From the NCBI GenBank assembly GCA_964543705.1, contig CAZIZP010000001.1, forward strand, positions 71,583 to 135,582: a stretch of DNA of 64,000 nt. Reading direction: 5' to 3'. The translations under genes were made by a program, and so were the position numbers. This stretch comes from an uncultured Chitinophagaceae bacterium. GTDB taxonomy: Bacteria; Bacteroidota; Bacteroidia; Chitinophagales; CAIOSU01. Shown one piece after another: positions 9,821-28,836 of this stretch (its first letter is position 1; every line of letters begins with the position of its first letter). Below the pieces are notes generated by a model. That model did not search any database. It was not told the origin of the DNA and saw only the letters and a program-made list of their open reading frames with translations.

Positions 9821-9928
9821 TTTTAGCCAAAAAACTTTGTTACAATAGCAAGATGTATGTTTATTTGCACTTTGTGAATTGTTTTATTTTATAGTTTTCT
9901 TTTCACGGTTTCAAATTTAAGTCCTGTT

Positions 9929-12437: not shown

Positions 12438-12507
12438 AATACTGTTTTAACATTTGCAATTAAAATTATGCTATAGTTATATGCAACATGTGAAGCGGCA
12501 CTTAAAT

Positions 12508-12545
12508 TAAGTACAGATACTTATGAATATTAGGAGAAATACTTA
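12508..12545. promoter_or_regulatory. Composite palindromic site D (16-6-16)
   Basis: TAAGTACAGATACTTA-tgaata-TTAGGAGAAATACTTA. It lies in the 131-nt gap upstream of the decarboxylase ATG (12437). Confidence 0.5.
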
Positions 12546-12568: not shown

Positions 12569-13009
12569 TTAAGAATATTGTAAAACAGGAAGTTCATTTA
12601 ATTGTAGCCAGTAATTATTTACAAGTTTTACAGCATTTAAAAACTCTTCAAAATTCACCGGTTTTTTAAGATAACTGTTAGCACCCAGGTTATAGCTTTC
12701 TAATAAATCTTTTTCTTCTAAAGATGAAGTAAGCATAACAACAGGAATACGTTTTAAATTATTGGCAGATTTTAGTTTTTGCAAAACCTGAAGCCCGTTT
12801 ACCATAGGCATGTTTATATCTAATAAAATAAGGTTTACAGTCTTCATGTGATCGCTGTTGGCAGCATTAAAAATAAAATTTAGTGCTTCTACCCCATTGT
12901 TTAAATGAAGAATTTCAATATCGGGATAGTTATTTTTAAAAGCGAGAATAGTTAACTCGGCATCGTCTATATTATCTTCTATAAGAATGATTCTTTTACT
13001 TTTAATCAT
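12569..13009 (-). CDS. Single-domain response-regulator receiver (CheY/Rcp1-like)
   Basis: EDNIDDAEL...LILLDINMPMVNG...VVMLTSS...GANSYLKKP, with a C-terminal NYWLQLNELP tail. No output domain. Confidence 0.9.
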   Translation of the reverse strand: MIKSKRIILIEDNIDDAELTILAFKNNYPDIEILHLNNGVEALNFIFNAANSDHMKTVNLILLDINMPMVNGLQVLQKLKSANNLKRIPVVMLTSSLEEKDLLESYNLGANSYLKKPVNFEEFLNAVKLVNNYWLQLNELPVLQYS

Positions 13010-13883: not shown

Positions 13884-13897
13884 AAGGTGCTGTAGTA

Positions 13898-15028: not shown

Positions 15029-15030
15029 TA

Positions 15031-15804
15031 TTATTCAAAATTTATTTCATTACAAACGGCATCCCAAAGTTTTATACGTGCTTCAAGCGATTTTATGGCT
15101 CCCATTTTTGCTTCATGCCATTTAACATTATCGTTTCCACATACTTCTTCAATCATTTTTAATGCCAGATATCTATGATGTTCTCCATCAACCTGAATAT
15201 GCCTTTCCAGATAATAATTGAATGTGCTTAGTTTAGAAGGGTTAATTAATGCAATACAATCTATTACTTCCTGAAACATATCGGGAATTAAATCTTCTCT
15301 GCCAAAAGTGAATGCTCCGCAAACTGAAGCAAGGCTATTACTATTAATTATTTCGAAGGTATTGGCAACAAAAGCTTTAGCGGCTAAACTTTTGGTTACA
15401 CTTATATCAAGACATAATGATACCGGATACTGCAAGGCGATGTTGGAATAAAACAGTTCAATTTCAGAGGTATCGGCTTCAGCCTTCCTCATGGCATTTA
15501 AATAAAGTTCAAAATGAGAAATTCTGTTATTATGCTCATCTATATCACACTCCTCACCCAACACTATTTCATTTATAAAAAATCTGGTATCGGCACTGCC
15601 TTTTGCATACCATGGGGCATTTGTAATAGTTAATTCGCTTTGTAGTTTTTTTAATAACGACATAAAATCCCAAACTGCAAATGCATGGTATTTCATAAAT
15701 ACTCTTAAGTGTTCAATATTCTTTATTGAACTGTAAACCTGGTGTTCTAATAATTTTTCTCGGCAAGGCGCAATTTCTTTAATTAACTTCTCAATTTGTT
15801 TCAT
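15031..15804 (-). CDS. DUF3050-like protein (haem-oxygenase-like helical fold family)
   Basis: HQVYSSI...LRVFMKYHAFAVWDFMSLLKKLQ...PWYAKGSADTRFFINEIVLGEECD...SHFELYLNAM matches my recollection of the DUF3050 signature. Confidence 0.6.
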   Translation of the reverse strand: MKQIEKLIKEIAPCREKLLEHQVYSSIKNIEHLRVFMKYHAFAVWDFMSLLKKLQSELTITNAPWYAKGSADTRFFINEIVLGEECDIDEHNNRISHFELYLNAMRKAEADTSEIELFYSNIALQYPVSLCLDISVTKSLAAKAFVANTFEIINSNSLASVCGAFTFGREDLIPDMFQEVIDCIALINPSKLSTFNYYLERHIQVDGEHHRYLALKMIEEVCGNDNVKWHEAKMGAIKSLEARIKLWDAVCNEINFE

Positions 15805-15817
15805 GGCAAAACAATAG

Positions 15818-16243
15818 TTATGGTTTTAGAGTATTTAAAAAATTGATATTTAACCAATAATTCCCAAGAGTTTTAATGGCATCCTGATAGGCTGAAACAT
15901 CTACAGGCTTCACTATGTAGGAGTTTGCCCCTAAGCTGTAGCATTCTGTAACGTCTCTGCTTTCTTTTGAAGACGAGAGAATAACAACAGGAACATGTTT
16001 GGTGTTTTCATTTTCTTTTAGAATTCGTAAAACCTGAATTCCTGTAAGCTTTGGCATTTTTAAATCAAGCAGAATTAATCCAACATCTTTGGCATTGGTG
16101 GTATCCAGCATATAATCAAGAACAGACTGGCCGTTATCGAAATGTATAATGTCGTTTTGAATATTCATTGCGCGAAGAGAAGCAACTGCCAATTCTTTAT
16201 CGAGCAAGTCGTCTTCTGCCAATAATATTTTAAGTTTAATCAT
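15818..16243 (-). CDS. Single-domain response-regulator receiver (CheY/Rcp1-like)
   Basis: AEDDLLDKEL...ILLDLKMPKLTG...VVILSSS...GANSYIVKP...NYWLNINF. Its start overlaps the upstream kinase stop by 4 nt. Confidence 0.9.
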   Translation of the reverse strand: MIKLKILLAEDDLLDKELAVASLRAMNIQNDIIHFDNGQSVLDYMLDTTNAKDVGLILLDLKMPKLTGIQVLRILKENENTKHVPVVILSSSKESRDVTECYSLGANSYIVKPVDVSAYQDAIKTLGNYWLNINFLNTLKP

Positions 16244-18483
16244 ACTAAATAATTTATGTTTTTAGGAATCGAAAAACTAAATGTAGCCCCTTCTTCAGGT
16301 TGGCTATAAAAAGTAATTTTTCCTCTATGTTTATCTATTATTCGTTTTGAATTAGCCAGCCCTATTCCATTACCATCAAACTCATTGGGACCATGCAGCC
16401 TGTTGAACATTTTAAAAAGGTTTTGAGCATGGGCCATATCAAAACCTGCACCATTATCTTTTACTGTAAAAACATGAAAGTTATTATCCTCATTGTATAA
16501 TACCTGAATTTCAATATTAGATTTTTTTGATGAGTACTTAACTGCATTAGAAATAAGATTACTAAATACTTGTTCAATTAATGTTTCATCGGCATTAATA
16601 AAAGGCATTGAACTAATTGTAAACTCAATATTCAGGTTACCATTAATATTTTTATACATTTCTGCTATTTGTGTAACCATTTTATAAGTATCTATCTCTT
16701 TTAATTCCAGCAGTTTATTACCGATTCTATTAAATTCAAGTAATCCTTCTATAAGCCGTTTCATTTTCTCACCGGCATTGTTAATATTATTTATAAGCTC
16801 CTCTCCTTTCTTATCAATATTGTCTTTTAAATGTTCTTTCAGCAAATGAGAATAAAATAGGGTATGCCTAATGGGTGCTTTTAAATCGTGAGAAATAATG
16901 TAGGATACATTTTGAAGATTATTGTATGATTCTTCTAAATCTTTGGTTCTAGAAACTACACGCTCTTCAAGGGTTCTGTTTAAACTTTCTAATTCTGCTT
17001 CAGCTTTCTTTCTTTCAGTAATATCAATCTCAATTGCCATAAAGCCCATTACTTCATGTTTAGCATCATATAGCGGCTGAATGTATAGCTCTATCCAATA
17101 AACATTACCTGTTTTACCTTTATTCTTAATTTCTGCTTTTACAGGTTCAAAACGTGAAATTTTTTCGTTTATAAATTTTACAGTATCGTGGTTGGTTTCT
17201 TCAAACTGAAAGATTTTAGGTGTTCTGCCTTTAAGTTCTTCAAATGTGTAGCCGCTAATTTTGGTAATGCTATCGTTAATCCAAACAATATTTTTATCCT
17301 TATCAGTAATAATAACACCATTGGTAGTATTTTTTGCAACAAGAGAGAGCTTGTATAGCTCGTTTTCAATTTTTCTTCTTTCAGTTATATCTTGTATAGT
17401 ACCCGAAATTTTTAAAGGTTTTCCGTTTTCAAAATCTATATTGGCAAGGCAATGAATCCATTTTAATTCTTTACTGTAGCCTGTAATAATTCTAAAATCT
17501 TTGTTGAATACTTTTTTGTTTTTAATACAATATTTTATTTCAAATAAAACTTCGTTTCTGTCTTCATCTGCAATATAATTTAGCCAATCGGTGTATAAAT
17601 TATTTTCAGTAAAATCGAATTGTAAAATTTGATTGAAAGTAAATGAGCTATTAGATGTTTTATTTTGTAAATAGAAACAATAGCTTCCAATTCGTGTAGT
17701 TTGCTGTGCCTGGTTTAAGCCATTTAATGCCTGCTGCAACTCTTTTGTTCTTTCTTCAACCTTTAATTCCAGCCCTCTGTTTAGTTCATCATTTTTATTT
17801 TTTTGTACTAGTAAACTTGCTTTTAACGAGTAAAATGCATTTTGTAACAATCCTATTTCATCTTGTGATTCTGATTTTTTAATTGCGACATTATAATTAC
17901 CACTTTCAAGCACTTTGGCAATTTCAGTAACTTGTCTTATTGGGCTGGAAATTCTTTTAGTAATGAAGTAGAAAATAGTTAAAGAGACTACTAACATAGT
18001 AAACAAGAAGGAATAAATGGGATAATGGAGTTTAGCTATTTCCTTGTTTATTTCCAGCATAGAACTTGCTATAAGAATTTTACCATTAACAACTTCTGTA
18101 GTAAAACTGCTTTCATTTACTAAATATTTTTTTGGGTCGTAAGCAGATGCCAGGCTAGTCTTTTCAGCAGGTATAACATTAAATACTTCTTCGTTTCCTA
18201 AAGAGTCAATAGTAATTATAGCAATAAACTCAAAAGATTTTTTGCTAGAAATATAATTAACCGTTTTTTGCAAATTGGTATAATCATTATGAATAAACGA
18301 AACTTCAACAGCATTTGCTATGTTTAATGCCAGTGCCTCAAGTTCTGCTTCTTCATGCTCAAAAAACAACTCTCTTTGTTTTTCAGGATAATACATGGCA
18401 ATGGTTATAGCAATAACCAAAATAATAATGGTATAAGGAATCCATATTTTATAGAAAAGAGAGTTTGAATTTCCTGAAAACAC
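16240..18483 (-). CDS. Transmembrane sensor histidine kinase (extracytoplasmic domain-HAMP-PAS-PAS-HisKA-HATPase_c)
   Basis: Two TM segments (IWIPYTIIILVIAITIAMYY and IYSFLFTMLVVSLTIFYFI) flank a ~125-aa loop. There is a HAMP-like linker and two PAS units ending ..QDITERRK and ..IDITERKK. H-box SYIISHDLKAPIRH. DNGAGFD...GNGIGLANSKRI...GATFSFSIPK. Confidence 0.9.
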   Translation of the reverse strand: MFSGNSNSLFYKIWIPYTIIILVIAITIAMYYPEKQRELFFEHEEAELEALALNIANAVEVSFIHNDYTNLQKTVNYISSKKSFEFIAIITIDSLGNEEVFNVIPAEKTSLASAYDPKKYLVNESSFTTEVVNGKILIASSMLEINKEIAKLHYPIYSFLFTMLVVSLTIFYFITKRISSPIRQVTEIAKVLESGNYNVAIKKSESQDEIGLLQNAFYSLKASLLVQKNKNDELNRGLELKVEERTKELQQALNGLNQAQQTTRIGSYCFYLQNKTSNSSFTFNQILQFDFTENNLYTDWLNYIADEDRNEVLFEIKYCIKNKKVFNKDFRIITGYSKELKWIHCLANIDFENGKPLKISGTIQDITERRKIENELYKLSLVAKNTTNGVIITDKDKNIVWINDSITKISGYTFEELKGRTPKIFQFEETNHDTVKFINEKISRFEPVKAEIKNKGKTGNVYWIELYIQPLYDAKHEVMGFMAIEIDITERKKAEAELESLNRTLEERVVSRTKDLEESYNNLQNVSYIISHDLKAPIRHTLFYSHLLKEHLKDNIDKKGEELINNINNAGEKMKRLIEGLLEFNRIGNKLLELKEIDTYKMVTQIAEMYKNINGNLNIEFTISSMPFINADETLIEQVFSNLISNAVKYSSKKSNIEIQVLYNEDNNFHVFTVKDNGAGFDMAHAQNLFKMFNRLHGPNEFDGNGIGLANSKRIIDKHRGKITFYSQPEEGATFSFSIPKNINYLV

Positions 18484-18486
18484 CGC

Positions 18487-18942
18487 CTATTTATTTTCTA
18501 TTTTAATAATGAATTCTATGGGAATATTTAAACTCTTATTATTGGATATAATGCCAATGGCACCTTCATTTTTCTTAATAAACTGAATAATTTCTTCATC
18601 GGAATCAAGAAACACAGGTGGCTTAGACCTACCTTGAAAAACTTCAGAAAGCCAGAACTTTTGAACCGCAGTAAAAGATGTATTGTATATAAGTTTAGAT
18701 ACTCCTGAAGCATTTGGAGATTTTCCTGAAGGCAGCACAATTATTATTGGACTATTATTCTTCCATGAAGTATTTTTTGCTTTAAATACATTGGTAATGC
18801 TATTAAAGCTCATGGATAGTTCACCTGTACTATTACCCAGAAACACATATTGCTCGTTGACCTGAGCAATTATTTCAGCTTTAAAGAGAAGCTGAATGAA
18901 CAAAAACAGTATGAAGTAGAAATTTTTCATGTTAAAAGCCAT
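18487..18942 (-). CDS. Small secreted periplasmic-binding-protein-like protein (PstS/PBP-like half domain)
   Basis: Signal peptide MKNFYFILFLFIQLLFKAEIIAQ; the ATG at 18930 is an alternative, non-overlapping start. The tail ..WLSEVFQGRSKPPVFLDSDEEIIQFIKKNEGAIGIISNN resembles the C-terminal GAIGY-type end of phosphate-binding-protein-like domains. The family call is tentative. Confidence 0.55.
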   Translation of the reverse strand: MAFNMKNFYFILFLFIQLLFKAEIIAQVNEQYVFLGNSTGELSMSFNSITNVFKAKNTSWKNNSPIIIVLPSGKSPNASGVSKLIYNTSFTAVQKFWLSEVFQGRSKPPVFLDSDEEIIQFIKKNEGAIGIISNNKSLNIPIEFIIKIENK

Positions 18943-20020
18943 AAGAGAGTTGAACTTTAAATTCGTATCGGGTATGCAGATGATTATGATGATTCATTGC
19001 ATGATTGTGCATCAGATTCCCATATCTTTCAGCTTGAAATTTCAGATTAATTAAATGACTTATTTCATAACGGTAACCCGCGCATAATCTAATTGCATTA
19101 AATGGCGATACGTGCAAATCGTTATCTGAAATAGTTAATAAATCTGTCATTAAATATGGCACATGTTTTTCTTTAATTCTGTAACCGCCATATATATAGT
19201 TAGAGAAATTATTGGCCTTACCTAAAGTATCAGTTTGTGTAGCGTTATATACAAACTCATTTAACAACTCAAACTTTTTTCCGAAGTAAGCAAGTGAAAA
19301 GCAATACATTTCAAAGTTTAATGCACCTGAATAGCTAGAAAAAGCATTGATGTGAATATTACCAGTGTGTCCGCTATGAGCGCCTGCCACATTTTGCTCA
19401 AGAAAATCGTTGTAATATGATACTTGGATACGTAAATTATCTACCGGCTTAACATGAACTGATGCGGTAATGGATTTATTTGTACCAATATCAAAAAAAT
19501 CAGTTGAGGCTATGCCATTACCTAAAACAAAATCGTATCCGAAATTTATTTTTCCTAAATTTTGCCCCATAAACCTTAGCCCCAAAGTATGTAACGGTAT
19601 TATGGCACTAAAGGCTATAGGCCTGTCAATGGTAGGAAAAAAAAGTCTGCCATGATGATATACATCATTCCAATAGTTTACAGGCCCATGCATTTTACCT
19701 ACTAAAACACTGTGATTTTTATAATAATCAAATTTCACCTGAGCTCGCTCTATACTGGGCAAAAAACTTGTTGCCGATTTACCATCAAACCTGATAACAC
19801 TTTCGCCTAAGAAGGAAATTTTCTTTGTTATATCAGCAGTAATAAAAAAGTCTTGTTCGCCAAGTGAAAAAAAAGAGTTTCTGTTTTCACCTATATCTTC
19901 CATTCGATATTCAACATGGCCAAAGTAATTAAAGTGAAACTTTTTTTCTTTTGTTTGAGAATACAATGCTGTAATAACAAAGACAAGTGTATAAATACAT
20001 GAAATTTTTTTCATAAACAT
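18932..20020 (-). CDS. Outer-membrane beta-barrel porin-like protein
   Basis: Signal peptide (MKKISCIYTLVFVITALYSQ). Alternating amphipathic beta-strand pattern throughout. The terminal ..YEFKVQLSYGF ends in an aromatic residue, as in OMP beta-signals. Confidence 0.65.
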   Translation of the reverse strand: MFMKKISCIYTLVFVITALYSQTKEKKFHFNYFGHVEYRMEDIGENRNSFFSLGEQDFFITADITKKISFLGESVIRFDGKSATSFLPSIERAQVKFDYYKNHSVLVGKMHGPVNYWNDVYHHGRLFFPTIDRPIAFSAIIPLHTLGLRFMGQNLGKINFGYDFVLGNGIASTDFFDIGTNKSITASVHVKPVDNLRIQVSYYNDFLEQNVAGAHSGHTGNIHINAFSSYSGALNFEMYCFSLAYFGKKFELLNEFVYNATQTDTLGKANNFSNYIYGGYRIKEKHVPYLMTDLLTISDNDLHVSPFNAIRLCAGYRYEISHLINLKFQAERYGNLMHNHAMNHHNHLHTRYEFKVQLSYGF

Positions 20021-20024
20021 TTAA

Positions 20025-20447
20025 TTATCTATGATTAATAAGTGCCCAATAAAAACCAATAGCTCTTACTGAATCTTCGAAATCTTTAATATTTACAGGC
20101 TTAACTACATAAGAATTTGCCCCTACACCGTATGACTCTATCACATCTTTTAATTCTTTAGAAGAGGTTAGCATTATAACCGGTATATGCTTGGTAGCAT
20201 TGGTATTTTTAAGTTGCTTTAAAACTTCAATGCCATCAACTTTTGGCATTTTCAAATCTAGAATAACAAGAGCGGGATCGTCATGATCGGCATTTTCAAA
20301 TTCGCCTTGTTTAAAAATATAATCCAACACGGTTTGTCCATTATCAAAATGCACAATCTCATTTAAAATGGGAATACTTTTAAGAGTAGTTACCGTTAAC
20401 TCTTTGTCTAAGTAATCATCTTCTCCAAGAATAATTTTCTTTATCAT
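20025..20447 (-). CDS. Single-domain response-regulator receiver (CheY/Rcp1-like)
   Basis: GEDDYLDKEL...VILDLKMPKVDG...VIMLTSS...GANSYVVKP...FYWALINH. Clear paralogue of 15818-16243 (similarity judged by eye). Confidence 0.9.
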   Translation of the reverse strand: MIKKIILGEDDYLDKELTVTTLKSIPILNEIVHFDNGQTVLDYIFKQGEFENADHDDPALVILDLKMPKVDGIEVLKQLKNTNATKHIPVIMLTSSKELKDVIESYGVGANSYVVKPVNIKDFEDSVRAIGFYWALINHR

Positions 20448-20453
20448 AGTTTG

Positions 20454-23400
20454 CTATTTTGGTATAGTAAAATAAAATGTTGCACCTTTATTAGGCTCGC
20501 TGTAAAAATTTATAGTGCCCTTATGTCTCTCAATAATTCGTTTGGTATTAGCAAGGCCAATTCCATTGCCTTCAAATTCATTGGGTGTATGTAGCCTCGT
20601 AAACATGTTAAACATATTTGCGCTGTGCTTCATATCGAAACCGGTACCATTATCTGTTATAGTAAATTGGTGATATTTACCTGTATCATTATATCTTATT
20701 TCCACTTTAACTACCGGCTGCTTAGAAGAATATTTAATAGCATTTGATATTAAATTGGTGAATACTTGTTCTATTAATGCATCATCAGCATTAATATCAG
20801 GAAGTTGGTCTATTTCAATATTTAAATTCAAATTGGCATTTAAGGTTTTATACATCTCTAATAATCTTGTTACCAATTGAAATGTATTAATCTGTTTAAT
20901 AATCAAAGGCTTATTACCAAGCTTATTAAACTCTAACATTCCATCAATAAGTTTACCCATTTTATCACCCGCTAAACTTATGTTATTTAGCAACCTCAGT
21001 TCATCCTCGTTCAGTTTACCTTCTATTTTAGTTTTCAGCATTTGTGTAAACATAGTAGTGTGGCGAACCGGTGCTTTTAAATCATGAGAAATTACGTAAG
21101 CAAAATTTTGAAGATTTTTGTTTGTTTCATTTAATTCTAAGGTTCTTTCTTCTACAAGCTGCTCAAGATTTTCATTAAGTTTTTCAAGTTCTCTCTCGGC
21201 CTGTTTTATTTTAGTAATATCATGCAAATAGGCTTGTGAGCCTACCAGAATATTATCTTTGTAAAGTGGAATAACCCTGCCCTGTAAAAGCAAAGCATCA
21301 CCATTTTTGGAAAGGAATGTACAGTTCAAATCAGTAACTATTTTACCTTCCATTACTTGAGGAATAACTCTTGAAAACTCTTCCAAGGTAGGTTCATCCA
21401 AAAATTGAGTTAATTCTTTACCTATAAAGTTATGCTCGCTAAGCAATCCCAGCTTTTCTTTCCACGAACGATTTGTCCAAACAATTTTACCTTCAAGATC
21501 AAGTGTCTGAATCATTTCAGAAGAATTTTCCAGAATGGTTCTATATTCATATTCTGCCTGAATAATTTTGGTTATATCATGCAAATATGCCTGTGAGCCA
21601 ATAAGTACATTGTTTTTATATAGTGGTATTGCCCTGCCTTGAAGTATTAATGAATTACCCTTCTTAGATAAGAAAGTACATTGCAAATCGGTTACTATTT
21701 TGCCTTCCATTACTTGGGGAATAACTCTGTTAAATTCCTCCAGTGTTGCTTTATCAAAAAATTGAGTTATGCTTTCACCAGTTATAAGTTCATCTGTAAC
21801 ACCTAGTTTTTCTTTCCACGAACGGTTAGTCCAAACAATTTTACCTTCAAGGTCAAGAGTCTGAATCATTTCAGAAGAATTATCAAGAATTATTCTATAT
21901 CGCTCTTCACTTTCTTTTATTTCTTTCTCATAACTTTTTTGATTGGTAATATCAGTAGCATAACCATCCATTCTTATAGCTATACCTTTTTCGTAAATAA
22001 CTTTTATTTTGTTTTTTATCCATTTAACATTACCACTCTTAGTAATAACTCTGTATTCAACATCTGAATTTCCGTATTTATAAACATTCTCATTAATTAC
22101 ATTAATAAAATGTCTATCCTCCGGATGAATCATTTTTTCCCATAAACTGTGGTCTGATTCAAATTCTGTTGTTGAATAACCATACATTTTTTCAATTGAA
22201 GGTGTAATGAAGATGTATTTCTTGGAAACAATATCTAAAGACCACAGCACATCCTGAATCTCGTTTAATATACTTTCCAGCTTTCGTTTAGCCTCTTTTA
22301 CCTCATTTTCTGCAATTTTTCGGTGAGTAATATCTCTTGCATAAGTTGCAATGTATATTACTTCGTTATTATCGTTTAAAACCGGATGAATGTTGGTTTC
22401 AAAAATGTAGCCGTCTCTTGTATCTTCAAAAAAAACAGGCGTTTTGGTTTTTAATACTTGTAAACCATACTCCAACCTTTTTGCTGATGTACTACTACTG
22501 AACATATTCCTGATGTCTTTACCAATCATTTGTTCAGGTGAAATATTAAGCGTTTCCTTATATCTGTAATTTGCCTCTACTATTGTTCCGTCAGCTTTAA
22601 CAAGCATAATATTATCAGGTGAAGCATCTAATAATGTTTTTTGTATTAGTTGCTTTTCATGCAATTCATCTAAAAGCTTTTGCCTGTGTAGTGTGCCTAT
22701 AATATAATCCAGAAAGGTTCTAATAATATCAGCTTCAAACTCATTCCATTTCTTTTGTGAATTTTTGAAATGAAATGCTATAATAATATTGGTCTCGGTA
22801 CTTAACTCTTGTGAGTATGCAGTAAAACTTTCAGTATTACTATTATCAAACAGGCTATAAATATTGTTTTCAGAATTGCTGACTATGTGTAATAAATTAT
22901 TGTCTAACAATTGTTTTGAAAAAGCTTTATGACTTAAAACACTTTTATAAATAGATAAATAGCTTTCGTCTTTTACGCCTTCTCTGTTCCACTTTGCAAT
23001 AACATCATAAGAACTAGCTTTTTTATTAAAAGTTATTATATGGCACTCGTAGGCTACAGTATTCACGCCTATATATGCTAAAGATTTATAGAGCCTTGAA
23101 TCTAAAGACTCATCTGAAAGTAATGCGGCAGCAGCCTCTGAAAGGCTTCTTAACAAGATATCTGTTTGTCTTATTAAATCTTCTTGCTTCTTCCTTTCCG
23201 TTATATCTTCTGCATAAAAATTGGCATACATTTTTGCCTTATTGGGATGTATGTTGTATTTAAAAACAAAATTTTCTACAAAAATCTCCCCATTATAAGA
23301 CTGCTCGTGAATTATTGAGTCTCTAATTTGCTTAGATATTTTAGCGGGAAGTTTATTCTGATATTGTTTATTGAAAAGTTTTATTAGCGTTTCGCTTGAA

Positions 23401-25595
23401 GTATTACTAAATAATAAATTACCTTCTATATCATACCTTAAAACCGGATTAGGATTTTCTAATGGAAATGATGCAAGGCTTTTAATTTCATCAAGTGCAG
23501 TAACCTTATCAGAAATATCGGTAATAATAAGCGCTAGTCCGCTTTCATTATTAGCATTATTCCTGAGTATTATTTCATCGGCATAAAATGAAGAAGAATT
23601 TTTCCTGTTAATTTTTACTTCACCACGCCAATAACCTTCTTTATTTACAGCTTTAATGCCCTCGTTAATTACCAGGTCGAAAGAAGCTTCATCGTGTAAA
23701 TTTTCTAAAGACAGCCATGAAAAATCTTCGGCATTATAAATACCAAGCTGTTTTTTACCAAATTCATTTATAAAGAAATCTTTGTTATTGTTTGCATAGT
23801 ATATTACTGAGGCAGGTATGTTTTCAATTATAGAAAGAAGAATATTTTGATTTCTTTCCATATTAAACATATTAGTTACGTTAATACCATAACCAATCAT
23901 CATTTTTAATGACCCATCAGTATTAAATACGGGGTAATAGTTTCTATTTATTACTTCTTTATCTCCTTCTTTATTTTTATAAATATCATTCCACGAAACT
24001 TTGCATTTTTCATTAGCTGCCTTTAAAAAATACTTTCTTCTTTCAATAGCTCTTTCAGCAGGTACTTTTCTTTTCTCTACATAATCAAAATCAGTTCTTC
24101 CTTTTATCCACTTCCTTATAGAATTATCTTTAATTCCTGCCGGATTTACAAACTGATACTTATGCTGCTCATCAAAAACAGCAAGGTCATTTGGCAATTC
24201 ATTTAAAATGGTTTCATAAAATTGTTTTGTTTCTTCCAGTTTTTTATTTTGCCTGTATCTGGCAAGTGAATTAGAAACTATATTTAATGAAATTTTTACA
24301 ATTGAAACAACCTCTTCATGCCAATCGGCTAGTGTAAAAACAGAATCAATGCCTGCAAAGCCGGTTATTTTGTCTTCAAACAAAATAGGTACTATTAGCG
24401 TACTGGTTTCGAGAGTATTAAACAGTTTTATGTTTTGAATTAAATCGGGTTCATTTTTATAATTATAAATTACATGTTGCTTTTTATATAAGTCCGAAAT
24501 AAATGTTTCATTACCTTTTAAGTCTATATTTTTTGCCAACACACCAGTTTCTCTTTCAGAATTAGAGTGCCATTCTATAGTATTAACTATTTGTTTCTTA
24601 GTGTCACTAAACTCATACAAATAAATTCTAACTGCACTTAGCTGTTTGCTAAGCAACGCAAAAGCATCTTTAATTAAAATATTTGTGTGGTTTATATTGC
24701 CTGTAAGTAACTGTGATGATATCTTTAAAAGACTACTGTAAATTTCATTTAGACTCTTAATTCTATCTTCATTTTTTTTCCTTTCAGTTATATCTCTTGA
24801 TATTGCAACAATGTATTCTTTATTATTTGTTTGGGTAATATTAACACTAACTTCAACATCAATATTTTTGTTATCGCCTACATGATAGTTTTGACTTTCA
24901 ATTATTTGTTGTTTTAATCTTATATGTTGTACATGGTCTTCCCATGCTTTTTTATCTCTGAAACCGGGTTCAAAATCTTTTACATTTAAAGAATAATCTG
25001 CTTCATTGTTAATGCCAAATTTTCTTGCTGCCTCTTTATTTAAATAAATTATATCACCATTAATATCGCTGGCTTGAAAAGAATCTTTACTGTTATTCAC
25101 AAAAGCCTCTAAAAGAGATAGTTTTTCATTTAATTTAACGGTTTTCTTTATTTCTCTAGTAAGGCGCAACGATTTTCCCAGATTATTTATTATTGGTTTT
25201 AATTCATAAATAAACTCATTATAAAAAGGTATTGACCTACCTATTATTATTATGCCATAAGAGGCTATCTCAAAACCATAATAAAATCTTTCATTATGTT
25301 CAGATATGTATATATTGCCCTTACTTTCTGTAAAAAAATTTAGCACTTCATTTCTTACGGCATTTAACTCATCGCTGTTTTTATGCGCCAAAGGCAACAC
25401 GTAATCATCATCAGTTACATCATCATTTTCTGAATAAAAAATTGCAGCAGCAAGAAAACAATTTAGTTTTCTTAAATAAAGGTTTAGTGTTTTTTTTAGC
25501 ATTGTTTCTTCATCATACTCACCGGATGATGCTAATGCCAATTCAATTAATATTTGAGAAGTTATTTTGTTTCCTAGTGGCATAATACTACACAA
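20454..25595 (-). CDS. Giant cytoplasmic multi-PAS/GAF sensor histidine kinase (1713 aa)
   Basis: C-terminal H-box AYVISHDLKAPVRH plus HATPase_c (DNGTGFD, GNGIGLANTKRI, GATFYFTIPK). About 1450 aa of PAS/GAF-like units precede it, with recurrent PAC ends (DITERKK, DITHRK, DITNQK, HDITKI). No TM segment seen. Alternative start at M5 (25583). Confidence 0.9.
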   Translation of the reverse strand: MCSIMPLGNKITSQILIELALASSGEYDEETMLKKTLNLYLRKLNCFLAAAIFYSENDDVTDDDYVLPLAHKNSDELNAVRNEVLNFFTESKGNIYISEHNERFYYGFEIASYGIIIIGRSIPFYNEFIYELKPIINNLGKSLRLTREIKKTVKLNEKLSLLEAFVNNSKDSFQASDINGDIIYLNKEAARKFGINNEADYSLNVKDFEPGFRDKKAWEDHVQHIRLKQQIIESQNYHVGDNKNIDVEVSVNITQTNNKEYIVAISRDITERKKNEDRIKSLNEIYSSLLKISSQLLTGNINHTNILIKDAFALLSKQLSAVRIYLYEFSDTKKQIVNTIEWHSNSERETGVLAKNIDLKGNETFISDLYKKQHVIYNYKNEPDLIQNIKLFNTLETSTLIVPILFEDKITGFAGIDSVFTLADWHEEVVSIVKISLNIVSNSLARYRQNKKLEETKQFYETILNELPNDLAVFDEQHKYQFVNPAGIKDNSIRKWIKGRTDFDYVEKRKVPAERAIERRKYFLKAANEKCKVSWNDIYKNKEGDKEVINRNYYPVFNTDGSLKMMIGYGINVTNMFNMERNQNILLSIIENIPASVIYYANNNKDFFINEFGKKQLGIYNAEDFSWLSLENLHDEASFDLVINEGIKAVNKEGYWRGEVKINRKNSSSFYADEIILRNNANNESGLALIITDISDKVTALDEIKSLASFPLENPNPVLRYDIEGNLLFSNTSSETLIKLFNKQYQNKLPAKISKQIRDSIIHEQSYNGEIFVENFVFKYNIHPNKAKMYANFYAEDITERKKQEDLIRQTDILLRSLSEAAAALLSDESLDSRLYKSLAYIGVNTVAYECHIITFNKKASSYDVIAKWNREGVKDESYLSIYKSVLSHKAFSKQLLDNNLLHIVSNSENNIYSLFDNSNTESFTAYSQELSTETNIIIAFHFKNSQKKWNEFEADIIRTFLDYIIGTLHRQKLLDELHEKQLIQKTLLDASPDNIMLVKADGTIVEANYRYKETLNISPEQMIGKDIRNMFSSSTSAKRLEYGLQVLKTKTPVFFEDTRDGYIFETNIHPVLNDNNEVIYIATYARDITHRKIAENEVKEAKRKLESILNEIQDVLWSLDIVSKKYIFITPSIEKMYGYSTTEFESDHSLWEKMIHPEDRHFINVINENVYKYGNSDVEYRVITKSGNVKWIKNKIKVIYEKGIAIRMDGYATDITNQKSYEKEIKESEERYRIILDNSSEMIQTLDLEGKIVWTNRSWKEKLGVTDELITGESITQFFDKATLEEFNRVIPQVMEGKIVTDLQCTFLSKKGNSLILQGRAIPLYKNNVLIGSQAYLHDITKIIQAEYEYRTILENSSEMIQTLDLEGKIVWTNRSWKEKLGLLSEHNFIGKELTQFLDEPTLEEFSRVIPQVMEGKIVTDLNCTFLSKNGDALLLQGRVIPLYKDNILVGSQAYLHDITKIKQAERELEKLNENLEQLVEERTLELNETNKNLQNFAYVISHDLKAPVRHTTMFTQMLKTKIEGKLNEDELRLLNNISLAGDKMGKLIDGMLEFNKLGNKPLIIKQINTFQLVTRLLEMYKTLNANLNLNIEIDQLPDINADDALIEQVFTNLISNAIKYSSKQPVVKVEIRYNDTGKYHQFTITDNGTGFDMKHSANMFNMFTRLHTPNEFEGNGIGLANTKRIIERHKGTINFYSEPNKGATFYFTIPK
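21205..21915 (-). repeat. Intragenic tandem duplication of a 354-nt (118-aa) PAS unit
   Basis: ccaaacaattttaccttcaag recurs at 21477 and 21831, giving a 354-nt period. The protein copies are SSEMIQTLDLEGKIVWTNRSWKEKLG...VIPQVMEGKIVTDL.CTFLSK.G..L.LQGR.IPLYK.N.L.GSQAYLHDITKI. Coordinates are approximate. Confidence 0.85.
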
Positions 25596-26697
25596 TAACT
25601 ACAACCGTTTTATTAAAAATATCTAAGTAGCCATCTCCTGAATTTGCTACTTCACCTATTGTAAGTATTCCATGCAATTCTTTTCCATTAGAAATTTGCT
25701 GTATCTCGCTTTCAAAATCGTTTTGAAGATAAAGTACACGTGAAATACAGTCTATACAAAACATGTTGAGTGTATTTCCTGAATTATCATGGCTATTTAC
25801 AGCTGTTTGCGAGGCTCTTTGGGCACTTTTTAATAAAGAATCTTTATTACCATTTAAAACCTGAACAAATTCGCCCTGAGGCACTTCATCTACAATTACT
25901 AAAGCGTTATCTTTTTCAAATAGCGGGTCTCTTACTATAATTTCAGAATCTAATTTTGAAATACCTAATGGATAAGATTTCGCAATATCAAAAAAATTGT
26001 CGGCAGTAAATTTCTTACCCGAGTGGTTTTCAACAATGTTTTTATACACTTCAAAAGCAGGCTTCCAGTTTAGCTCATAAACTGTATTTTTCTCTGCTTT
26101 AGATACTTTAACCGGTTCTGATATAGGCTCCCAGCCATGCGCCACACCAATAGACTGTTCTTTTTCAGAAAGCACAATCAATGCCTTATTAATATGTATT
26201 TCACTATTTAGCAATACACATGGTTCTTGCTTAAAAGAAAGTCGTCCGGCACCACCACCTATATACTTTACTGTTGTGCCAAAAAAATCATATAGTGCAT
26301 TAAGGAAAATAGATTTGTTGGCATTAAAAGCATCTAAAAAAACAAAAATAGTTTTGTGCTTAAAGCTTTTTACATCTTTAATGTTAGCAATTTGTGTAAG
26401 ATAATCATCTACACTTTCAGTGGTTAGGTCAATTAAAGCAGCAGTAACATTAAAATTTATCTCTGTAATCAGTATTCCCTCACTGAATCTTTTATTATTA
26501 TAAATAAGTTCAGGAAATACACCACCAAAAACGGGCACATTAGTATCAGCCAATAGCCGACTTAAATACTCAAAGTCAATAAATGTGTTTTCGGCTATAA
26601 CTACACCTAATGCTTTACAATCAGGGTTTTCTGTAGCAATTTTAATATAATCTGAAATATGCTCTACCTCGCTATTGCTAATATATGAAACCTTCAT
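25588..26697 (-). CDS. Stand-alone FIST sensor-domain protein
   Basis: 369 aa. The ending HGILTIGEVANSGDGYLDIFNKTVVV has the FIST_C-type GEI...N.T pattern. Its stop overlaps the start of the giant kinase by 8 nt. Confidence 0.7.
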   Translation of the reverse strand: MKVSYISNSEVEHISDYIKIATENPDCKALGVVIAENTFIDFEYLSRLLADTNVPVFGGVFPELIYNNKRFSEGILITEINFNVTAALIDLTTESVDDYLTQIANIKDVKSFKHKTIFVFLDAFNANKSIFLNALYDFFGTTVKYIGGGAGRLSFKQEPCVLLNSEIHINKALIVLSEKEQSIGVAHGWEPISEPVKVSKAEKNTVYELNWKPAFEVYKNIVENHSGKKFTADNFFDIAKSYPLGISKLDSEIIVRDPLFEKDNALVIVDEVPQGEFVQVLNGNKDSLLKSAQRASQTAVNSHDNSGNTLNMFCIDCISRVLYLQNDFESEIQQISNGKELHGILTIGEVANSGDGYLDIFNKTVVVIV

Positions 26698-26725
26698 GTT
26701 GAGTAATTTTTATTAAATATTTTTA

Positions 26726-27088
26726 TTATAATTTTTGAAACTCGTTTTTGATAAATTCTAAGCATGCAAGCTCAGCGGCACTATTATTTCCTGATATTGA
26801 AACAGCACCAATTAATTCATTATGATATAGTAGTGGAAGACCTTTACAAGTATCAGTCACCGTTTCTTCATGCTTAAAAAAAACAATTTCTTTTGCATTT
26901 TCCTTTGCATTATTCAAAGTGGCTAAGGAAGCGTTATCCATTCTAAGACTAATAATCTCGTTTCCTGACGAATCGACAATACAAATAGAAAAAGGCACTT
27001 TTAAGTCGTTAGATTTTTGAATACAAATATTCAAAAGCTCTAACGCAGTAACGTGAGATATTGATAATGTGCTGATAAAATGAATCAT
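26726..27088 (-). CDS. GlcG/HbpS-like (DUF336) putative haem-binding protein
   Basis: 120 aa. VPFSICIVDSSGNEIISLRMDNASLATLNNAKENAKE and GLPLLYHNELIGAVSISGNNSAAELACLE match the DUF336 pattern (..vaVvD.gG.l....rmDga...s...A..KA ... liGaiGvSG...). No signal peptide. Confidence 0.7.
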   Translation of the reverse strand: MIHFISTLSISHVTALELLNICIQKSNDLKVPFSICIVDSSGNEIISLRMDNASLATLNNAKENAKEIVFFKHEETVTDTCKGLPLLYHNELIGAVSISGNNSAAELACLEFIKNEFQKL

Positions 27089-27152
27089 ATAAATTCAATT
27101 TTACCCTAAATCTCATATTTGTCAATAGGTTAATAAAATATTAGCTGAAAAT

Positions 27153-27190
27153 ATGGTAACTATACTTATGATTTTAAGTACACATACTTA
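27153..27190. promoter_or_regulatory. Composite palindromic site E (16-6-16) in the divergent promoter region
   Basis: ATGGTAACTATACTTA-tgattt-TAAGTACACATACTTA. It lies 65-102 nt upstream of the minus-strand array start (27088). It ends 23 nt upstream of a TATTTTTG box preceding the LuxR gene. Confidence 0.55.
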
Positions 27191-27212: not shown

Positions 27213-27220
27213 TATTTTTG
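27213..27220 (+). promoter_or_regulatory. Candidate Bacteroidetes-type -7 promoter box (TAnnTTTG)
   Basis: TATTTTTG lies 21 nt upstream of the ATG at 27241. No good TTTG -33 element is seen at the expected spacing. Confidence 0.35.
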
Positions 27221-27240: not shown

Positions 27241-27897
27241 ATGAAAAAAATACTAATCATTGATGACCATGAGTTAATGTGTTATTCTATAAAACATGTT
27301 CTCGACAGCACTAATAAATATTCAGTTCATATATGCAATGAAAGTACTAAGGCATTAGACATGATTAATGATATGGAATATGACCTATTAATGATTGACA
27401 TAGAAATGCCAGGCATAAACGGGATTCAGCTTGCTAAAAAAATTTTAAAGAAAATTCATGGTCAAAAAATACTTTTTATAACCGGATTAGATTATACAAA
27501 TCATCTTGATGACATTATATCTCTTGAAACAAATGGTTTCATACTAAAAAGTATCGAATCTAATGATTTAATACATGCTGTAGATTCTGTTATTAAAGGA
27601 AGTTACTACTACGGCAGCGAAATTGTGAAAGAGTTTTTGGTAAAATTAAAACGGGGAAAAAGCGTAACACTTCCCGTAACCAATAATGAAGAAATAGGAA
27701 AAAGATTATCATATCGTGAGTTTCAGATTGTAAAATACATATGTGAAGGCTTAACCAGTGGGGCAATTGCAGAAAAAATGTTTTTAAGTAAAAGAACAGT
27801 TGATGCTCACAGGTATAATATACTTAAAAAGTTAAACCTTAAAAACACCACTGAATTAATTGCCGTATTTGCAGGAACTTACAAAAAACAAAACTAA
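27241..27897 (+). CDS. NarL/FixJ-family response regulator (REC + LuxR-type HTH)
   Basis: IIDDHELM...LLMIDIEMPGINGIQL...ILFITG. The C-terminal part LSYREFQIVKYICEGLTSGAIAEKMFLSKRTVDAHRYNILKKL is a LuxR/GerE HTH. Confidence 0.9.
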   Translation: MKKILIIDDHELMCYSIKHVLDSTNKYSVHICNESTKALDMINDMEYDLLMIDIEMPGINGIQLAKKILKKIHGQKILFITGLDYTNHLDDIISLETNGFILKSIESNDLIHAVDSVIKGSYYYGSEIVKEFLVKLKRGKSVTLPVTNNEEIGKRLSYREFQIVKYICEGLTSGAIAEKMFLSKRTVDAHRYNILKKLNLKNTTELIAVFAGTYKKQN

Positions 27898-28155
27898 TTT
27901 CATTAAATGATGTTATGTAATAAGCCAATAATGAATTTAAGTTTTTTAATAAAACTATTCCTCTCCTCCTTGTTCATTTAGACTACTTCCGGCATTTAAA
28001 GCAACTAACAATTACATATTAATTATTTAGGTTTATTTACTTAAATTAAGTGTTCAAACTAGGTATTCTTTACATAAATGTTTCCCTATTAGCTGTAAAA
28101 CAGGAAATTAAACGTTAACTGAATATACTTTTACAGTTAAACAAAATTCTACGTA

Positions 28156-28836
28156 ATGAAAACTATACTTGTTTTAGATGACAACTCATTGTTCAGATTT
28201 TCTGTTAAGGCATTGTTATATGAACATGAAGATTACAAAGTTATTGAGGCTAATAACATTTCAGAAGCATTAGATATATCACAAAAAAATGATATTGACC
28301 TTGCAATAATAGACATAGAGTTGAGGAATGAGAGTGGAGTTGATTTTGCAAATGAGCTAAAAATAAATAAACCAAAAACTGAAATTTTATTTGTTACAAT
28401 ATTTGATATAGGATTGAAACTATCAAAGCTATTTTCAGCTTCTCCGGCTGGCATAATATACAAAGACGTGAGCCCTGAATTATTTACAACAGTTATAAAG
28501 CTAATTCTTGCAGGTGGAAAATATTTTGACCAAAGACTGCCTATGCAAAATTTATATAGTAATGAAAATGACGGTAAAAAAAGAAATAAGCGAACCTATT
28601 TTTTGGATAATGAAAAAAATATAAAATTAACCAAGAGAGAATGTGAAATTGCCATAGGAATTTCAAAAGGTAAAACCAGTCTTGAGATAGCAAATGATTT
28701 AAAAGTATCGAATAGAACTATTGATACTCATAAAAGAAACATGTTTATTAAGCTAGGTATAAACAAAAACATTCAATTGGTTCATTACGTAAACGAGAAA
28801 TTAATTAATGCAGGTTTACAATCTATTTACCTATAA
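28156..28836 (+). CDS. NarL/FixJ-family response regulator (REC + LuxR-type HTH), divergent receiver
   Basis: VLDDNSLF...LAIIDIELRNESG...ILFVT. The HTH is LTKRECEIAIGISKGKTSLEIANDLKVSNRTIDTHKRNMFIKL. Confidence 0.85.
   Translation: MKTILVLDDNSLFRFSVKALLYEHEDYKVIEANNISEALDISQKNDIDLAIIDIELRNESGVDFANELKINKPKTEILFVTIFDIGLKLSKLFSASPAGIIYKDVSPELFTTVIKLILAGGKYFDQRLPMQNLYSNENDGKKRNKRTYFLDNEKNIKLTKRECEIAIGISKGKTSLEIANDLKVSNRTIDTHKRNMFIKLGINKNIQLVHYVNEKLINAGLQSIYL

What the first reader, a model, noticed from the sequence alone, without database searches (positions are those of the whole stretch)
27153..27190. Recurrent 38-bp composite palindrome (TAAGTA-N4-TACTTA, 6-bp spacer, TAAGTA-N4-TACTTA) at five intergenic sites: candidate operator of a local regulon
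The five aligned copies are as follows. A, 1919-1956: TAAGTACAGTTACTTA-ttaaat-TAAGTATGAATACTTA. B, 9258-9295: TGAGTACACATACTTA-tagaat-TAAGTATAGATACTTA. C, 9783-9820: TTGGTATTTATACTTA-atttac-TAAGTATTGATACTAA. D, 12508-12545: TAAGTACAGATACTTA-tgaata-TTAGGAGAAATACTTA. E, 27153-27190: ATGGTAACTATACTTA-tgattt-TAAGTACACATACTTA. The half-sites are reverse complements of each other. The 16-6-16 layout puts the two dyads 22 bp apart, about two helical turns, so they sit on the same DNA face. All copies are intergenic. E lies in the divergent promoter between the signalling array and the first LuxR-type regulator, ending 23 nt before a TATTTTTG -7 box. D precedes the decarboxylase gene and B precedes the MRVNE adhesin. 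The half-site TACTTA(T) fits the NarL heptamer consensus TACYYMT, and two NarL/LuxR-family regulators are encoded at 27241 and 28156. The spacing differs from the classical 7-2-7. Weaker single or abutted versions occur at 41327-41342 (TAAGTAATTGTACTAT), 4624-4633 (TACTTAAGTA) and 28037-28052. I saw none in the core block at 55.9-64 kb.
Basis: partly seen in the sequence, partly recalled or inferred. Interest (0 to 1): 0.7.

Follow-up and report, generated by a model that had tools for sequence, protein, structure and literature searches.

The report
Tandem FixJ-type operator of a regulon
The repeated 38-bp double palindrome is real and is most likely the DNA docking site through which one or both neighbouring FixJ/NarL-type response regulators switch on their own gene, a large sensor-kinase cluster and several surface-protein genes in an uncultured Bacteroidota bacterium; this is a well-supported example of a familiar kind of gene switch.

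Summary
Exact TAAGTA-N4-TACTTA occurs 5 times against 0.01 expected. These matches lie in four of the five 16-6-16 composites, and all five composites are wholly intergenic (P about 4e-6). Their flanks are unrelated. A sixth copy lies 1.3 kb left of the window.

The site is a conserved operator. In genomes whose RR1 is only 49-55% identical, the composite sits at the same place in the HbpS-like/RR1 divergent promoter. A matrix built only from those foreign sites ranks the five window sites first. In a related species each site stays with its own downstream gene although gene order has changed. Bacteroidota-type -7 boxes lie at fixed distances from the site edge, either 23-25 nt or 40 nt.

The binder is inferred, not shown. 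RR1 (27241) and RR2 (28156) are the only complete DNA-binding proteins conserved in the cluster. RR1's recognition helix is of the FixJ/SsrB type. The 16-mer matches the experimentally determined FixJ site TAAGTAATTTCCCTTA at 10 of 12 positions, and its 4-bp spacer matches SsrB's 7-4-7 layout. The classical NarL 7-2-7 comparison fits less well.

Hairpin, transposon-repeat and chance explanations fail. Verdict: a new member of a known kind, of moderate interest.

The parts
1919..1956 (.). Site A. Composite TAAGTACAGTTACTTA-ttaaat-TAAGTATGAATACTTA, upstream of the 59-aa ORF on the minus strand.
   Evidence: The ortholog A' in L127 lies upstream of the orthologous 58-aa ORF. A TAACTTG box lies 40 nt from the site edge in both genomes (read from the output).
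9258..9295 (.). Site B, 119 nt upstream of the start codon of the 1141-aa PKD-domain surface protein (5713-9138, minus strand).
   Evidence: The ortholog B' in L127 differs at one base and lies upstream of the 1214-aa Ig-like protein.
9783..9820 (.). Site C, facing a short plus-strand unit that ends at the terminator 9929-9952.
   Evidence: C' in L127 keeps TTTATTTG at offset 40 and a terminator with compensating changes.
12508..12545 (.). Site D, 70 nt upstream of the PLP-dependent decarboxylase gene (10749-12437, minus strand).
   Evidence: D' in L127 is at the same distance from the gene.
27153..27190 (.). Site E, in the 152-bp divergent region between the HbpS-like gene (first gene of the sensor-kinase array) and RR1.
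   Evidence: The composite is conserved at the same position in L090, L092 and L124, where RR1 is 49-55% identical.
27213..27220 (+). TATTTTTG, the -7 box of the RR1 promoter, 22 nt downstream of site E. No TTTG -33 element lies between the site and the box.
   Evidence: The same spacing of 23-25 is seen in five orthologous promoters.
27107..27114 (-). GAGATTTA, a -7-like box for the HbpS-like/kinase array, 38 nt from the other edge of site E.
   Evidence: The conserved block is seen. GAnATTTA lies at offset 39-40 in the window, L090 and L092 (read).
12461..12468 (-). TAATTTTA, a -7-like box of the decarboxylase promoter, at offset 40 from site D.
9860..9867 (+). TTTATTTG, a -7-like box at offset 40 from site C, preceded by TTTG at 9836-9839.
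1872..1879 (-). TAACTTGA box at offset 40 from site A.
28028..28043 (.). Single 16-mer TAGGTTTATTTACTTA, 112 nt upstream of RR2. It is a possible one-dimer site.
   Evidence: Single 16-mers ATGGTAATAATACTTA (L092) and ATAGTATTTATACCTA (L090) lie 80-84 nt upstream of the RR2 orthologs.
27241..27897 (+). RR1, a REC + GerE response regulator with a FixJ/SsrB-type recognition helix. It is a candidate binder.
28156..28836 (+). RR2, a REC + GerE response regulator in an operon with the hybrid kinase 28847-32827. It is a candidate binder.
12569..27088 (-). Sensor array that is the putative target on the minus side of site E. It encodes an HbpS-like protein, FIST proteins, multi-PAS kinases, receiver-only proteins and a DUF3050/HamA-like protein.
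1659..1838 (-). 59-aa basic protein, the putative target of site A.
   Evidence: called as a gene; conserved, with synonymous changes.

Best explanation
Each 38-bp element is a tandem operator. It consists of two 16-bp palindromes (TAAGTA-N4-TACTTA) whose centres are 22 bp apart, so both lie on one face of the helix.

Inferred mechanism: each palindrome binds a dimer of a FixJ/NarL-family (GerE helix-turn-helix) response regulator, and the two dimers bind side by side once the regulator is phosphorylated. The most likely binders are RR1 (27241-27897) and/or RR2 (28156-28836), which receive signals from the neighbouring multi-kinase array.

The site lies at one of two fixed distances upstream of Bacteroidota-type -7 boxes. 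The first is 23-25 nt, which puts the proximal palindrome at about -44; these promoters lack a -33 element. The second is 40 nt, which puts the proximal palindrome at about -60. Both positions suit an activator.

The regulon comprises RR1 itself, the divergent HbpS-like/FIST/PAS-kinase array, a PLP-dependent decarboxylase, a PKD surface protein, a conserved 59-aa basic protein, a short terminator-ended transcript, and two T9SS cargo genes just outside the window.

Shown: the motif, its non-random occurrence, its conservation and its phasing. Inferred: the identity of the binder, the stoichiometry, and activation rather than repression.
For: - Non-random and intergenic; similarity is limited to the 38 bp.
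- Conserved in the RR1 promoter of three lineages at 49-55% protein identity, 48-50 nt from the RR1 start codon. A second composite in those loci lies upstream of a kinase gene.
- A matrix built from the four foreign sites alone ranks the five window sites first, at 18.8-24.5 bits. The next hit scores 15.5. The mean best score over 100 shuffles is 11.6, and the single best shuffle reached 21.9.
- In a related species (decarboxylase 83% identical) sites A', B', C' and D' each stay with the same downstream gene despite rearranged gene order.
- The -7-like boxes are phased. The chance of at least 4 of 8 flanks sharing one offset is 4e-6.
- RR1 and RR2 are the only complete DNA-binding proteins conserved in the cluster. 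The two conserved unknown proteins carry signal peptides.
- RR1's helix SKRTVDAHRYNILKKL resembles FixJ's SPRTVEVHRANVMAKM and SsrB's SIKTVETHRMNMMRKL.
- The FixJ site on fixK is TAAGTAATTTCCCTTA, with footprints at -69..-44 and -57..-31 (PMC4999443).
- SsrB uses a 7-4-7 palindrome, and two copies lie at its own operon's promoter (PMC2837388).
- In three distant lineages (L055, L089, L015) the same composite lies next to a HisKA_3 kinase. HisKA_3 kinases typically partner NarL-family regulators (own knowledge). L055 also has a REC-GerE regulator.
Against: - No binding data exist. RR1 cannot be distinguished from RR2, nor either from a regulator encoded outside the 73 kb seen.
- The kinases in the window are of HisKA type, not HisKA_3.
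- In other genomes the composite lies next to a LytTR-only protein (L024) or a small XRE protein (L013). Part of the out-group hits are expected by chance: my own estimate is roughly nine for AT-rich genomes.
- Site B has no clear -7 box at either canonical distance.
- Transcription start sites are inferred from sequence only.
Confidence: 0.65

Rival explanations
1. The element is a genuine operator, but for a different transcription factor encoded outside the region seen, for example an XRE-type or LytTR-type protein or another GerE regulator. RR1 and RR2 would then be targets only.
For: In Vicingaceae loci a 74-aa XRE gene ends 29 nt before the composite. In Flavobacteriales UBA2669-type loci the composite is 39 nt upstream of a LytTR-only protein. 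The 22-bp direct phasing of TACTTA resembles the 21-22 bp repeats used by LytTR regulators (own knowledge).
Against: No XRE or LytTR gene is present in the window or in the orthologous loci L090, L092, L125 and L127. The sites cluster within 29 kb of RR1/RR2, with none in the other 45 kb seen. The half-site equals the FixJ half-site, and RR1 carries a FixJ-type helix. The twofold symmetry of each 16-mer fits a dimer, not tandem LytTR monomers.
Confidence: 0.22
2. The copies are remnants of a mobile repeat, a MITE carrying a 22-bp minisatellite, rather than selected regulatory sites.
For: The genome scan found at least 74 arrays of 2-7 (mostly 4-5) tandem 22-bp units TAAGTAC(G/A)(T/C)GTACTTA+6 in one rumen Prevotellaceae assembly (RUG837). 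They are flanked by inverted ends TATGATAATCCGCAAAA. A similar array occurs in a metagenome contig (L094). Sites B and C flank other repeats.
Against: The window has no such inverted ends and never more than two units. Flanks are unrelated. Copies are orthologously conserved next to specific genes across species, with fixed promoter phasing. The RUG837 units have G, not A/T, before TACTTA, and that genome is 53% GC with no related regulator nearby.
Confidence: 0.03
3. The palindromes act as RNA or DNA hairpins, for example as a terminator, attenuator or cruciform, and not as protein-binding sequence.
For: The 38-mers can fold as an interrupted hairpin of -5.5 to -11.6 kcal/mol in four of the five copies.
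Against: Site D folds at -2.6 kcal/mol with z -0.33. Across 16 sites the paired fraction (78%) equals that of shuffles (79%), and there is essentially no compensatory change under either pairing scheme. The sequence itself is invariant, and departures from it break pairs. No T-run follows. The sites lie upstream of the inferred -7 boxes, outside the transcripts. There are no Rfam hits.
Confidence: 0.03

Closest known systems
FixJ box of rhizobial fixK promoters (FixL/FixJ two-component system)
   Same: The experimentally determined 16-bp site TAAGTAATTTCCCTTA has the same left hexamer, the same 4-bp spacer and xxCTTA on the right, which is 10 of 12 specified positions. The SELEX consensus GTAMGTAG contains TAAGTA. 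FixJ footprints at -69..-44 and -57..-31 cover the region predicted here for the 23-25 nt class (PMC4999443). The recognition helices are alike: RTV(E/D)xHRxN.
   Different: The sites here are near-perfect palindromes and occur as phased pairs (16-6-16). They serve at least six promoters rather than mainly fixK and nifA. The host is Bacteroidota. The kinases are multi-PAS/FIST/GAF proteins, and it is not known whether any of them binds haem. RR1 is only a generic family member (all NCBIfam scores are below cut-off).
SsrB 7-4-7 palindrome (Salmonella SPI-2)
   Same: It has an inverted repeat with a 4-bp spacer, is AT-rich, and has an ACmTTA-like half-site. One half-site is better conserved than the other, and two palindromes lie at the regulator's own operon (PMC2837388). 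The SsrB C-terminal domain is the closest solved structure to RR1's DNA-binding domain (2JPC, E 7e-9).
   Different: SsrB sites are degenerate and have no fixed distance to the promoter. Here the sites are sharp, paired and phased. The half-site differs by one base in register (ACTTA against ACmTTA).
NarL/NarP 7-2-7 heptamer sites (TACYYMT-N2-AKRRGTA)
   Same: The regulator family is the same (closest full-length PDB match is NarL). TACTTAT formally fits TACYYMT in 5 of 10 half-sites.
   Different: The spacer is 4 bp within a palindrome, or 6 bp between palindromes, not 2. RR1 and RR2 have D/A/Y and D/T/R where NarL has its base-contacting K188/V189/K192 (residue roles from own knowledge).
BrickBuilt MITE of Porphyromonas gingivalis (a minisatellite inside a MITE)
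   Same: This is relevant only to the RUG837 arrays found in passing. Both have short tandem units of 22-23 nt between terminal inverted repeats, in many copies per genome (PMC4596501).
   Different: The BrickBuilt unit AGAYCATARTATCCTCTCRTRTG is unrelated in sequence. The window copies are not MITEs.

Membership tests
Operator of a NarL/FixJ-family (REC-GerE) response regulator | Inverted-repeat half-sites of 6-7 bp, compatible with a GerE-domain dimer | tested here: met
   TAAGTA-N4-TACTTA. A6, T11, C13, A16, A28, T33, A34, C35 and A38 are invariant, and G4 is present in 15 of 16 sites.
Operator of a NarL/FixJ-family (REC-GerE) response regulator | A cognate REC-GerE regulator with a phospho-acceptor Asp is encoded nearby, and its own promoter carries the site | tested here: met
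   RR1 and RR2 have REC+GerE domains, and D9 and D53 are invariant. Site E lies 50 nt upstream of RR1 in four lineages.
Operator of a NarL/FixJ-family (REC-GerE) response regulator | Promoter-linked position, conserved across orthologous genomes | tested here: met
Operator of a NarL/FixJ-family (REC-GerE) response regulator | Direct, sequence-specific binding by the regulator | not testable with these tools
   This needs EMSA, footprinting or DAP-seq.
FixJ box | 16-18 bp imperfect palindrome containing TAAGTA / GTAMGTAG | tested here: met
   10 of 12 specified positions match TAAGTAATTTCCCTTA (PMC4999443).
FixJ box | Regulator with a FixJ-type recognition helix | tested here: inconclusive
   RR1 shares 8 identical and 4 conservative positions out of 16 with FixJ's helix, but the NCBIfam FixJ score of 70 is far below the cut-off of 255.
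FixJ box | Partner haem-PAS oxygen-sensing kinase (FixL) and control of fixK | not tested
   PAS-rich kinases and an HbpS-like protein are present. Haem binding cannot be assessed, and no fixK-like gene was seen.
SsrB-type 7-4-7 site | Inverted heptamers separated by 4 bp | tested here: met
   The 4-bp spacer is invariant in length across 32 palindromes; PMC2837388.
NarL 7-2-7 site | TACYYMT heptamers inverted, with a 2-bp spacer | tested here: not met
   The spacers are 4 and 6 bp. Only 5 of 10 half-sites have T at position 7.
MITE / minisatellite repeat | Terminal inverted repeats, shared flanks and many tandem units | tested here: not met
   No inverted ends are present, flank identity is 0.30 against 0.28 expected by chance, and there are only two units per site.
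LytTR direct-repeat site | Two 9-10 bp direct repeats 12-13 bp apart, and a LytTR regulator | tested here: not met
   The 22-bp direct phasing exists. However, each unit is twofold symmetric, and no LytTR protein is present in the window or in the orthologous loci.
Structured RNA / hairpin | Pairing maintained by compensatory change | tested here: not met

The most novel reading that the evidence does not exclude
The 22-bp-phased FixJ-type double palindrome may be an old operator module shared by a subfamily of NarL/FixJ regulators across Bacteroidota, Ignavibacteria and KSB1. In rumen Prevotellaceae it may have been captured by a MITE and amplified to at least 74 arrays per genome. That would be a bacterial case of a transposable element spreading, or titrating, binding-site arrays for a two-component regulator. 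In the window's lineage, the module would link a many-kinase network that may sense haem or redox state to T9SS surface proteins.
Probability: 0.1. Interest if true: 0.65.

Novelty: new member of a known kind. Interest (0 to 1): 0.38.

Why it matters
The result gives a concrete, testable regulon for an uncharacterised two-component network in an uncultured Bacteroidota lineage, a phylum in which almost no NarL/FixJ-type regulons have been defined. The targets are the regulator itself, a cluster of at least four sensor kinases, surface and T9SS proteins, a decarboxylase, a tiny basic protein and a probable small RNA. It suggests that the FixJ-type half-site TAAGTA is recognised far outside the Alphaproteobacteria. 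It also offers two sharply phased promoter classes that could serve as a model for activation at Bacteroidota -7/-33 promoters. It does not reveal a new mechanism.

Tried and rejected
- **Genome-collection scan.** It was dominated by one Prevotellaceae assembly whose hits are MITE-borne arrays, not relatives of the window. The source genome was not among the hits.
- **Other out-group hits.** Belliella, Tenacibaculum, Treponema and Lentilactobacillus lack the outer TA..TA bases and are probably chance matches. I estimate about nine chance matches in AT-rich genomes. I therefore discounted the REC-GerE gene 1.9 kb from the Belliella hit.
- **Metagenome scan.** The 28 loci were heterogeneous and added little beyond L117 and L094.
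- **Rfam.** Nothing was found.
- **Literature search on the raw hexamers.** It returned mostly primers.
- **BrickBuilt MITE.** It is analogous only to the RUG837 arrays and is unrelated in sequence.
- **NarL 7-2-7 reading.** Rejected on spacing and on contact residues.
- **LytTR and XRE binders.** Considered and not supported locally.
- **Conserved unknown proteins of the array (151 aa and 362 aa).** Rejected as binders because both have signal peptides.
- **The 487 bp between B and C.** It is not unusually structured (z +1.14).
- **Candidate at 47991-48028.** It scores 15.5 bits (ortholog-only matrix) and is left as unproven.
- **Distinguishing RR1 from RR2.** I could not do this, and I could not scan the rest of the source genome.

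Full report
**Observation**

- Exact TAAGTA-N4-TACTTA occurs five times in 64 kb against 0.01 expected from dinucleotide-preserving shuffles. All five exact matches lie within four of the 16-6-16 composites; site C has only near matches.
- TACTTA-N6-TAAGTA is exact in four composites.
- Every 38-mer is fully intergenic. Only 8.2% of the window is intergenic, so five of five by chance has P about 4e-6.
- Outside the 38 bp the copies are unrelated: flank identity is 0.30 against 0.28 expected, while core identity is 0.68.
- Single 16-mers with up to two mismatches are not enriched (15 found, 9.85 expected).
- A sixth composite lies about 1.3 kb to the left of the window, between two divergent T9SS-cargo genes (L122:6566-6603). 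No further site appears in the remaining 8 kb of that flank or in 27.2-64 kb of the window.

**Setting**

The window is about 31% GC and encodes many T9SS-tailed proteins, so the source is a Bacteroidota bacterium.
- Positions 12569-27088 (minus strand) hold an array of an HbpS-like protein, two FIST proteins, multi-PAS kinases, receiver-only proteins and a DUF3050/HamA-like protein.
- Divergent from the array are RR1 (REC+GerE, 27241), RR2 (REC+GerE, 28156) and a GAF-PAS hybrid kinase.
- No other complete DNA-binding protein was found. The two conserved unknown proteins inside the array have signal peptides. The 140-aa ORF after the hybrid kinase is only the N-terminal half of a SigB/F/G-like sigma factor.

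**Comparative evidence**

RR1 has few relatives: one group at 49-55% identity, then a drop to about 35%.
- Loci carrying the 49-55% orthologs keep the arrangement HbpS-like gene, about 152 bp, RR1.
- Within otherwise diverged spacers, these loci keep a composite at the same place:
  - ATAGTATAAATACTTA-gtttat-TTGTTACTTATACCTA
  - ACAGTATTAGTACTTA-caagaa-ATGATATTAATACTTA
  - TATGTATAAGTACTTA-caataa-ATGATATTAATACTTA
- These composites end 48-50 nt before the RR1 start codon.
- The loci hold a second composite, which in L090 lies upstream of a kinase gene and in L092 upstream of a 39-aa ORF.
- A matrix made only from four foreign sites ranks the five window sites first, at 18.8-24.5 bits. The next hit scores 15.5. 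The mean best score over 100 shuffles is 11.6, and the single best shuffle reached 21.9.
- In a related species (decarboxylase 83% identical) gene order is rearranged. Sites A', B', C' and D' nevertheless each remain next to the same downstream unit: the 58-aa ORF, the large surface protein, a terminator-ended short unit and the decarboxylase.

**Anatomy**

Across 16 sites oriented towards their genes, A6, T11, C13, A16, A28, T33, A34, C35 and A38 are invariant, and G4 is present in 15 of 16. The core is GTA-N4-TAC inside TAAGTA-N4-TACTTA. The right-hand hexamers are better kept than the left-hand ones.

Bacteroidota-type -7 boxes (TAnnTTTG; consensus from my own knowledge) lie at two fixed distances from the site edge.
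- 23-25 nt: the RR1 and kinase-879 promoters, which have no -33 TTTG.
- Exactly 40 nt: C, C', D, D' and both directions of the sixth site. A and A' have TAACTTG at that offset, and the array side of E has GAnATTTA at 39-40.

Such boxes occur at 1.6% of intergenic positions. At least 4 of 8 flanks sharing one offset has P = 4e-6, or 2.5e-4 after correction for 60 offsets. If the -7 box starts near -12, the proximal palindrome is centred near -44 or near -60. These are the two classical activator positions. This step is inference.

**Who binds**

Binding cannot be tested with these tools. The case for RR1 and/or RR2 rests on four points.
- They are the only conserved local DNA-binding proteins, and the sites cluster within 29 kb of them.
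- RR1's own promoter carries the site in every lineage examined.
- RR1's recognition helix, SKRTVDAHRYNILKKL, is of the FixJ/SsrB type. FixJ has SPRTVEVHRANVMAKM, verified against 1X3U. SsrB has SIKTVETHRMNMMRKL and is the best solved match to RR1's DNA-binding domain.
- The known sites of those regulators match:
  - FixJ binds TAAGTAATTTCCCTTA on fixK, selects GTAMGTAG in SELEX, and footprints -69..-44 and -57..-31 (PMC4999443; see also PMC13327599).
  - SsrB uses a 7-4-7 AT-rich palindrome with half-site ACmTTA, and two copies lie at its own operon (PMC2837388).

Independent support comes from three distant lineages (Ignavibacteriae, Ignavibacteriales, KSB1). There a full composite lies just downstream of a Reg_prop-Y_Y_Y-HisKA_3 kinase. 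HisKA_3 kinases typically partner NarL-family regulators (own knowledge). One of these loci has a REC-GerE gene in between, and a receiver-only gene follows the site in the two loci where the downstream gene could be read.

NarL itself is a poorer model. Its spacer is 2 bp, and its base-contacting K188/V189/K192 (own knowledge) are D/A/Y in RR1.

**Rivals**

- *Another factor.* An XRE gene abuts the composite in Vicingaceae, and a LytTR-only gene does so in a marine Flavobacteriales lineage. Neither type is present in the window or its orthologous loci. Some out-group hits are expected by chance.
- *A mobile repeat.* One rumen Prevotellaceae assembly has at least 74 arrays of 2-7 (mostly 4-5) tandem 22-bp units TAAGTAC(G/A)(T/C)GTACTTA+6 between inverted ends TATGATAATCCGCAAAA. 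The window has no such ends, never more than two units, unrelated flanks and promoter-linked orthologous conservation. That genome is 53% GC, and 505 kb around its arrays contain no RR1- or RR2-like gene.
- *A hairpin.* Folding energies are modest, and site D is no better than shuffled sequence. Across 16 sites pairing equals the shuffled expectation, with essentially no compensatory change. Rfam finds nothing.

**Verdict**

This is a real, conserved, phased tandem operator of the FixJ/SsrB type. It is most likely used by RR1 and/or RR2 to control a local regulon that includes their own signalling cluster and several surface or secreted proteins. It is a new member of a known kind. Its value is as a clean, testable regulon in an under-studied phylum.

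Noticed in passing
L003-L089 (contigs OMSJ01..., Prevotellaceae RUG837); also L094, L036, L047, L037/L044: These are MITE-like elements of about 190 bp. They have ends TATGATAATCCGCAAAA / TTTTGCGGATTATCATA, a GC-rich hairpin, and 2-7 (mostly 4-5) tandem 22-bp units TAAGTAC(G/A)(T/C)GTACTTA+6. There are 74 arrays in 505 kb of a 53% GC genome. The hexamers and the phase match those of the window's operator. The architecture resembles BrickBuilt, but the unit sequence is unrelated.
   Followed up: partly
window 9821-9965 (+): A short unit follows site C. It has TTTG at 9836-9839, TTTATTTG at 9860-9867, and a terminator GGGCTTGCTTgtaaAAGCAGGCCC plus a T-run at 9929-9962. In L127 the blocks are conserved and the terminator stem has compensating changes. 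This is a possible regulated small RNA or a 13-aa peptide.
   Followed up: partly
window 5180-5590 and 9296-9782: A second repeat family brackets the PKD surface-protein gene. It comprises a unit of about 126 bp with the hairpin GATGCCTCGTGCCTCGGCAT, 9-mer runs (GAGAATTGA) and 7-mer runs (GTTTTGG / TTGAGTT). The same kinds of sequence occur near B', C' and A' in L127. The 487-bp stretch between B and C is only about 107 bp in L127, so it looks like an insertion.
   Followed up: partly
window 1659-1838 (-): A 59-aa lysine-rich protein has a conserved C-terminal motif PEEYGRxxxLLEW. It is called as a gene in public assemblies and is conserved in L127 with synonymous changes. It has no family match.
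   Followed up: partly
window 32830-33252 (+) and 1987-3666 (-): The 140-aa ORF after the hybrid kinase matches only the N-terminal half of SigB/SigF/SigG-type sigma factors, so it is a truncated gene or a fragment. A TPR-SpoIIE (PP2C) phosphatase gene lies next to site A. Orthologous clusters carry a 297-aa sigma-70 paralogue next to a composite site. Together these hint at a partner-switching or alternative-sigma layer.
   Followed up: no
window 18487-20020 (-): Two conserved proteins with no family assignment lie inside the kinase array, and both have signal peptides. The 362-aa protein ends in YGF, like an outer-membrane beta-barrel. The 151-aa protein looks periplasmic.
   Followed up: no
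window 47991-48028: A weak composite-like match (15.5 bits with the ortholog-only matrix) lies in the divergent region upstream of the 904-aa PKD-like protein. It is not distinguishable from chance.
   Followed up: no
L024, L096, L099, L110, L118: A perfect 38-bp palindrome TAAGTATTTATACTTA-TTCAAA-TAAGTATAAATACTTA lies 39 nt upstream of a 153-aa LytTR-only protein in a marine Flavobacteriales lineage (UBA2669-like). It may be an autoregulated LytTR system that uses a look-alike site.
   Followed up: no
window 10749-12437 (-): The 'decarboxylase' belongs to a large Bacteroidota-wide family of about 560-aa DAP/ornithine-decarboxylase-like proteins with an extra C-terminal region. There are hundreds of homologues at 45-50% identity, and it scores below the lysA cut-off. 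Its substrate is unknown.
   Followed up: no
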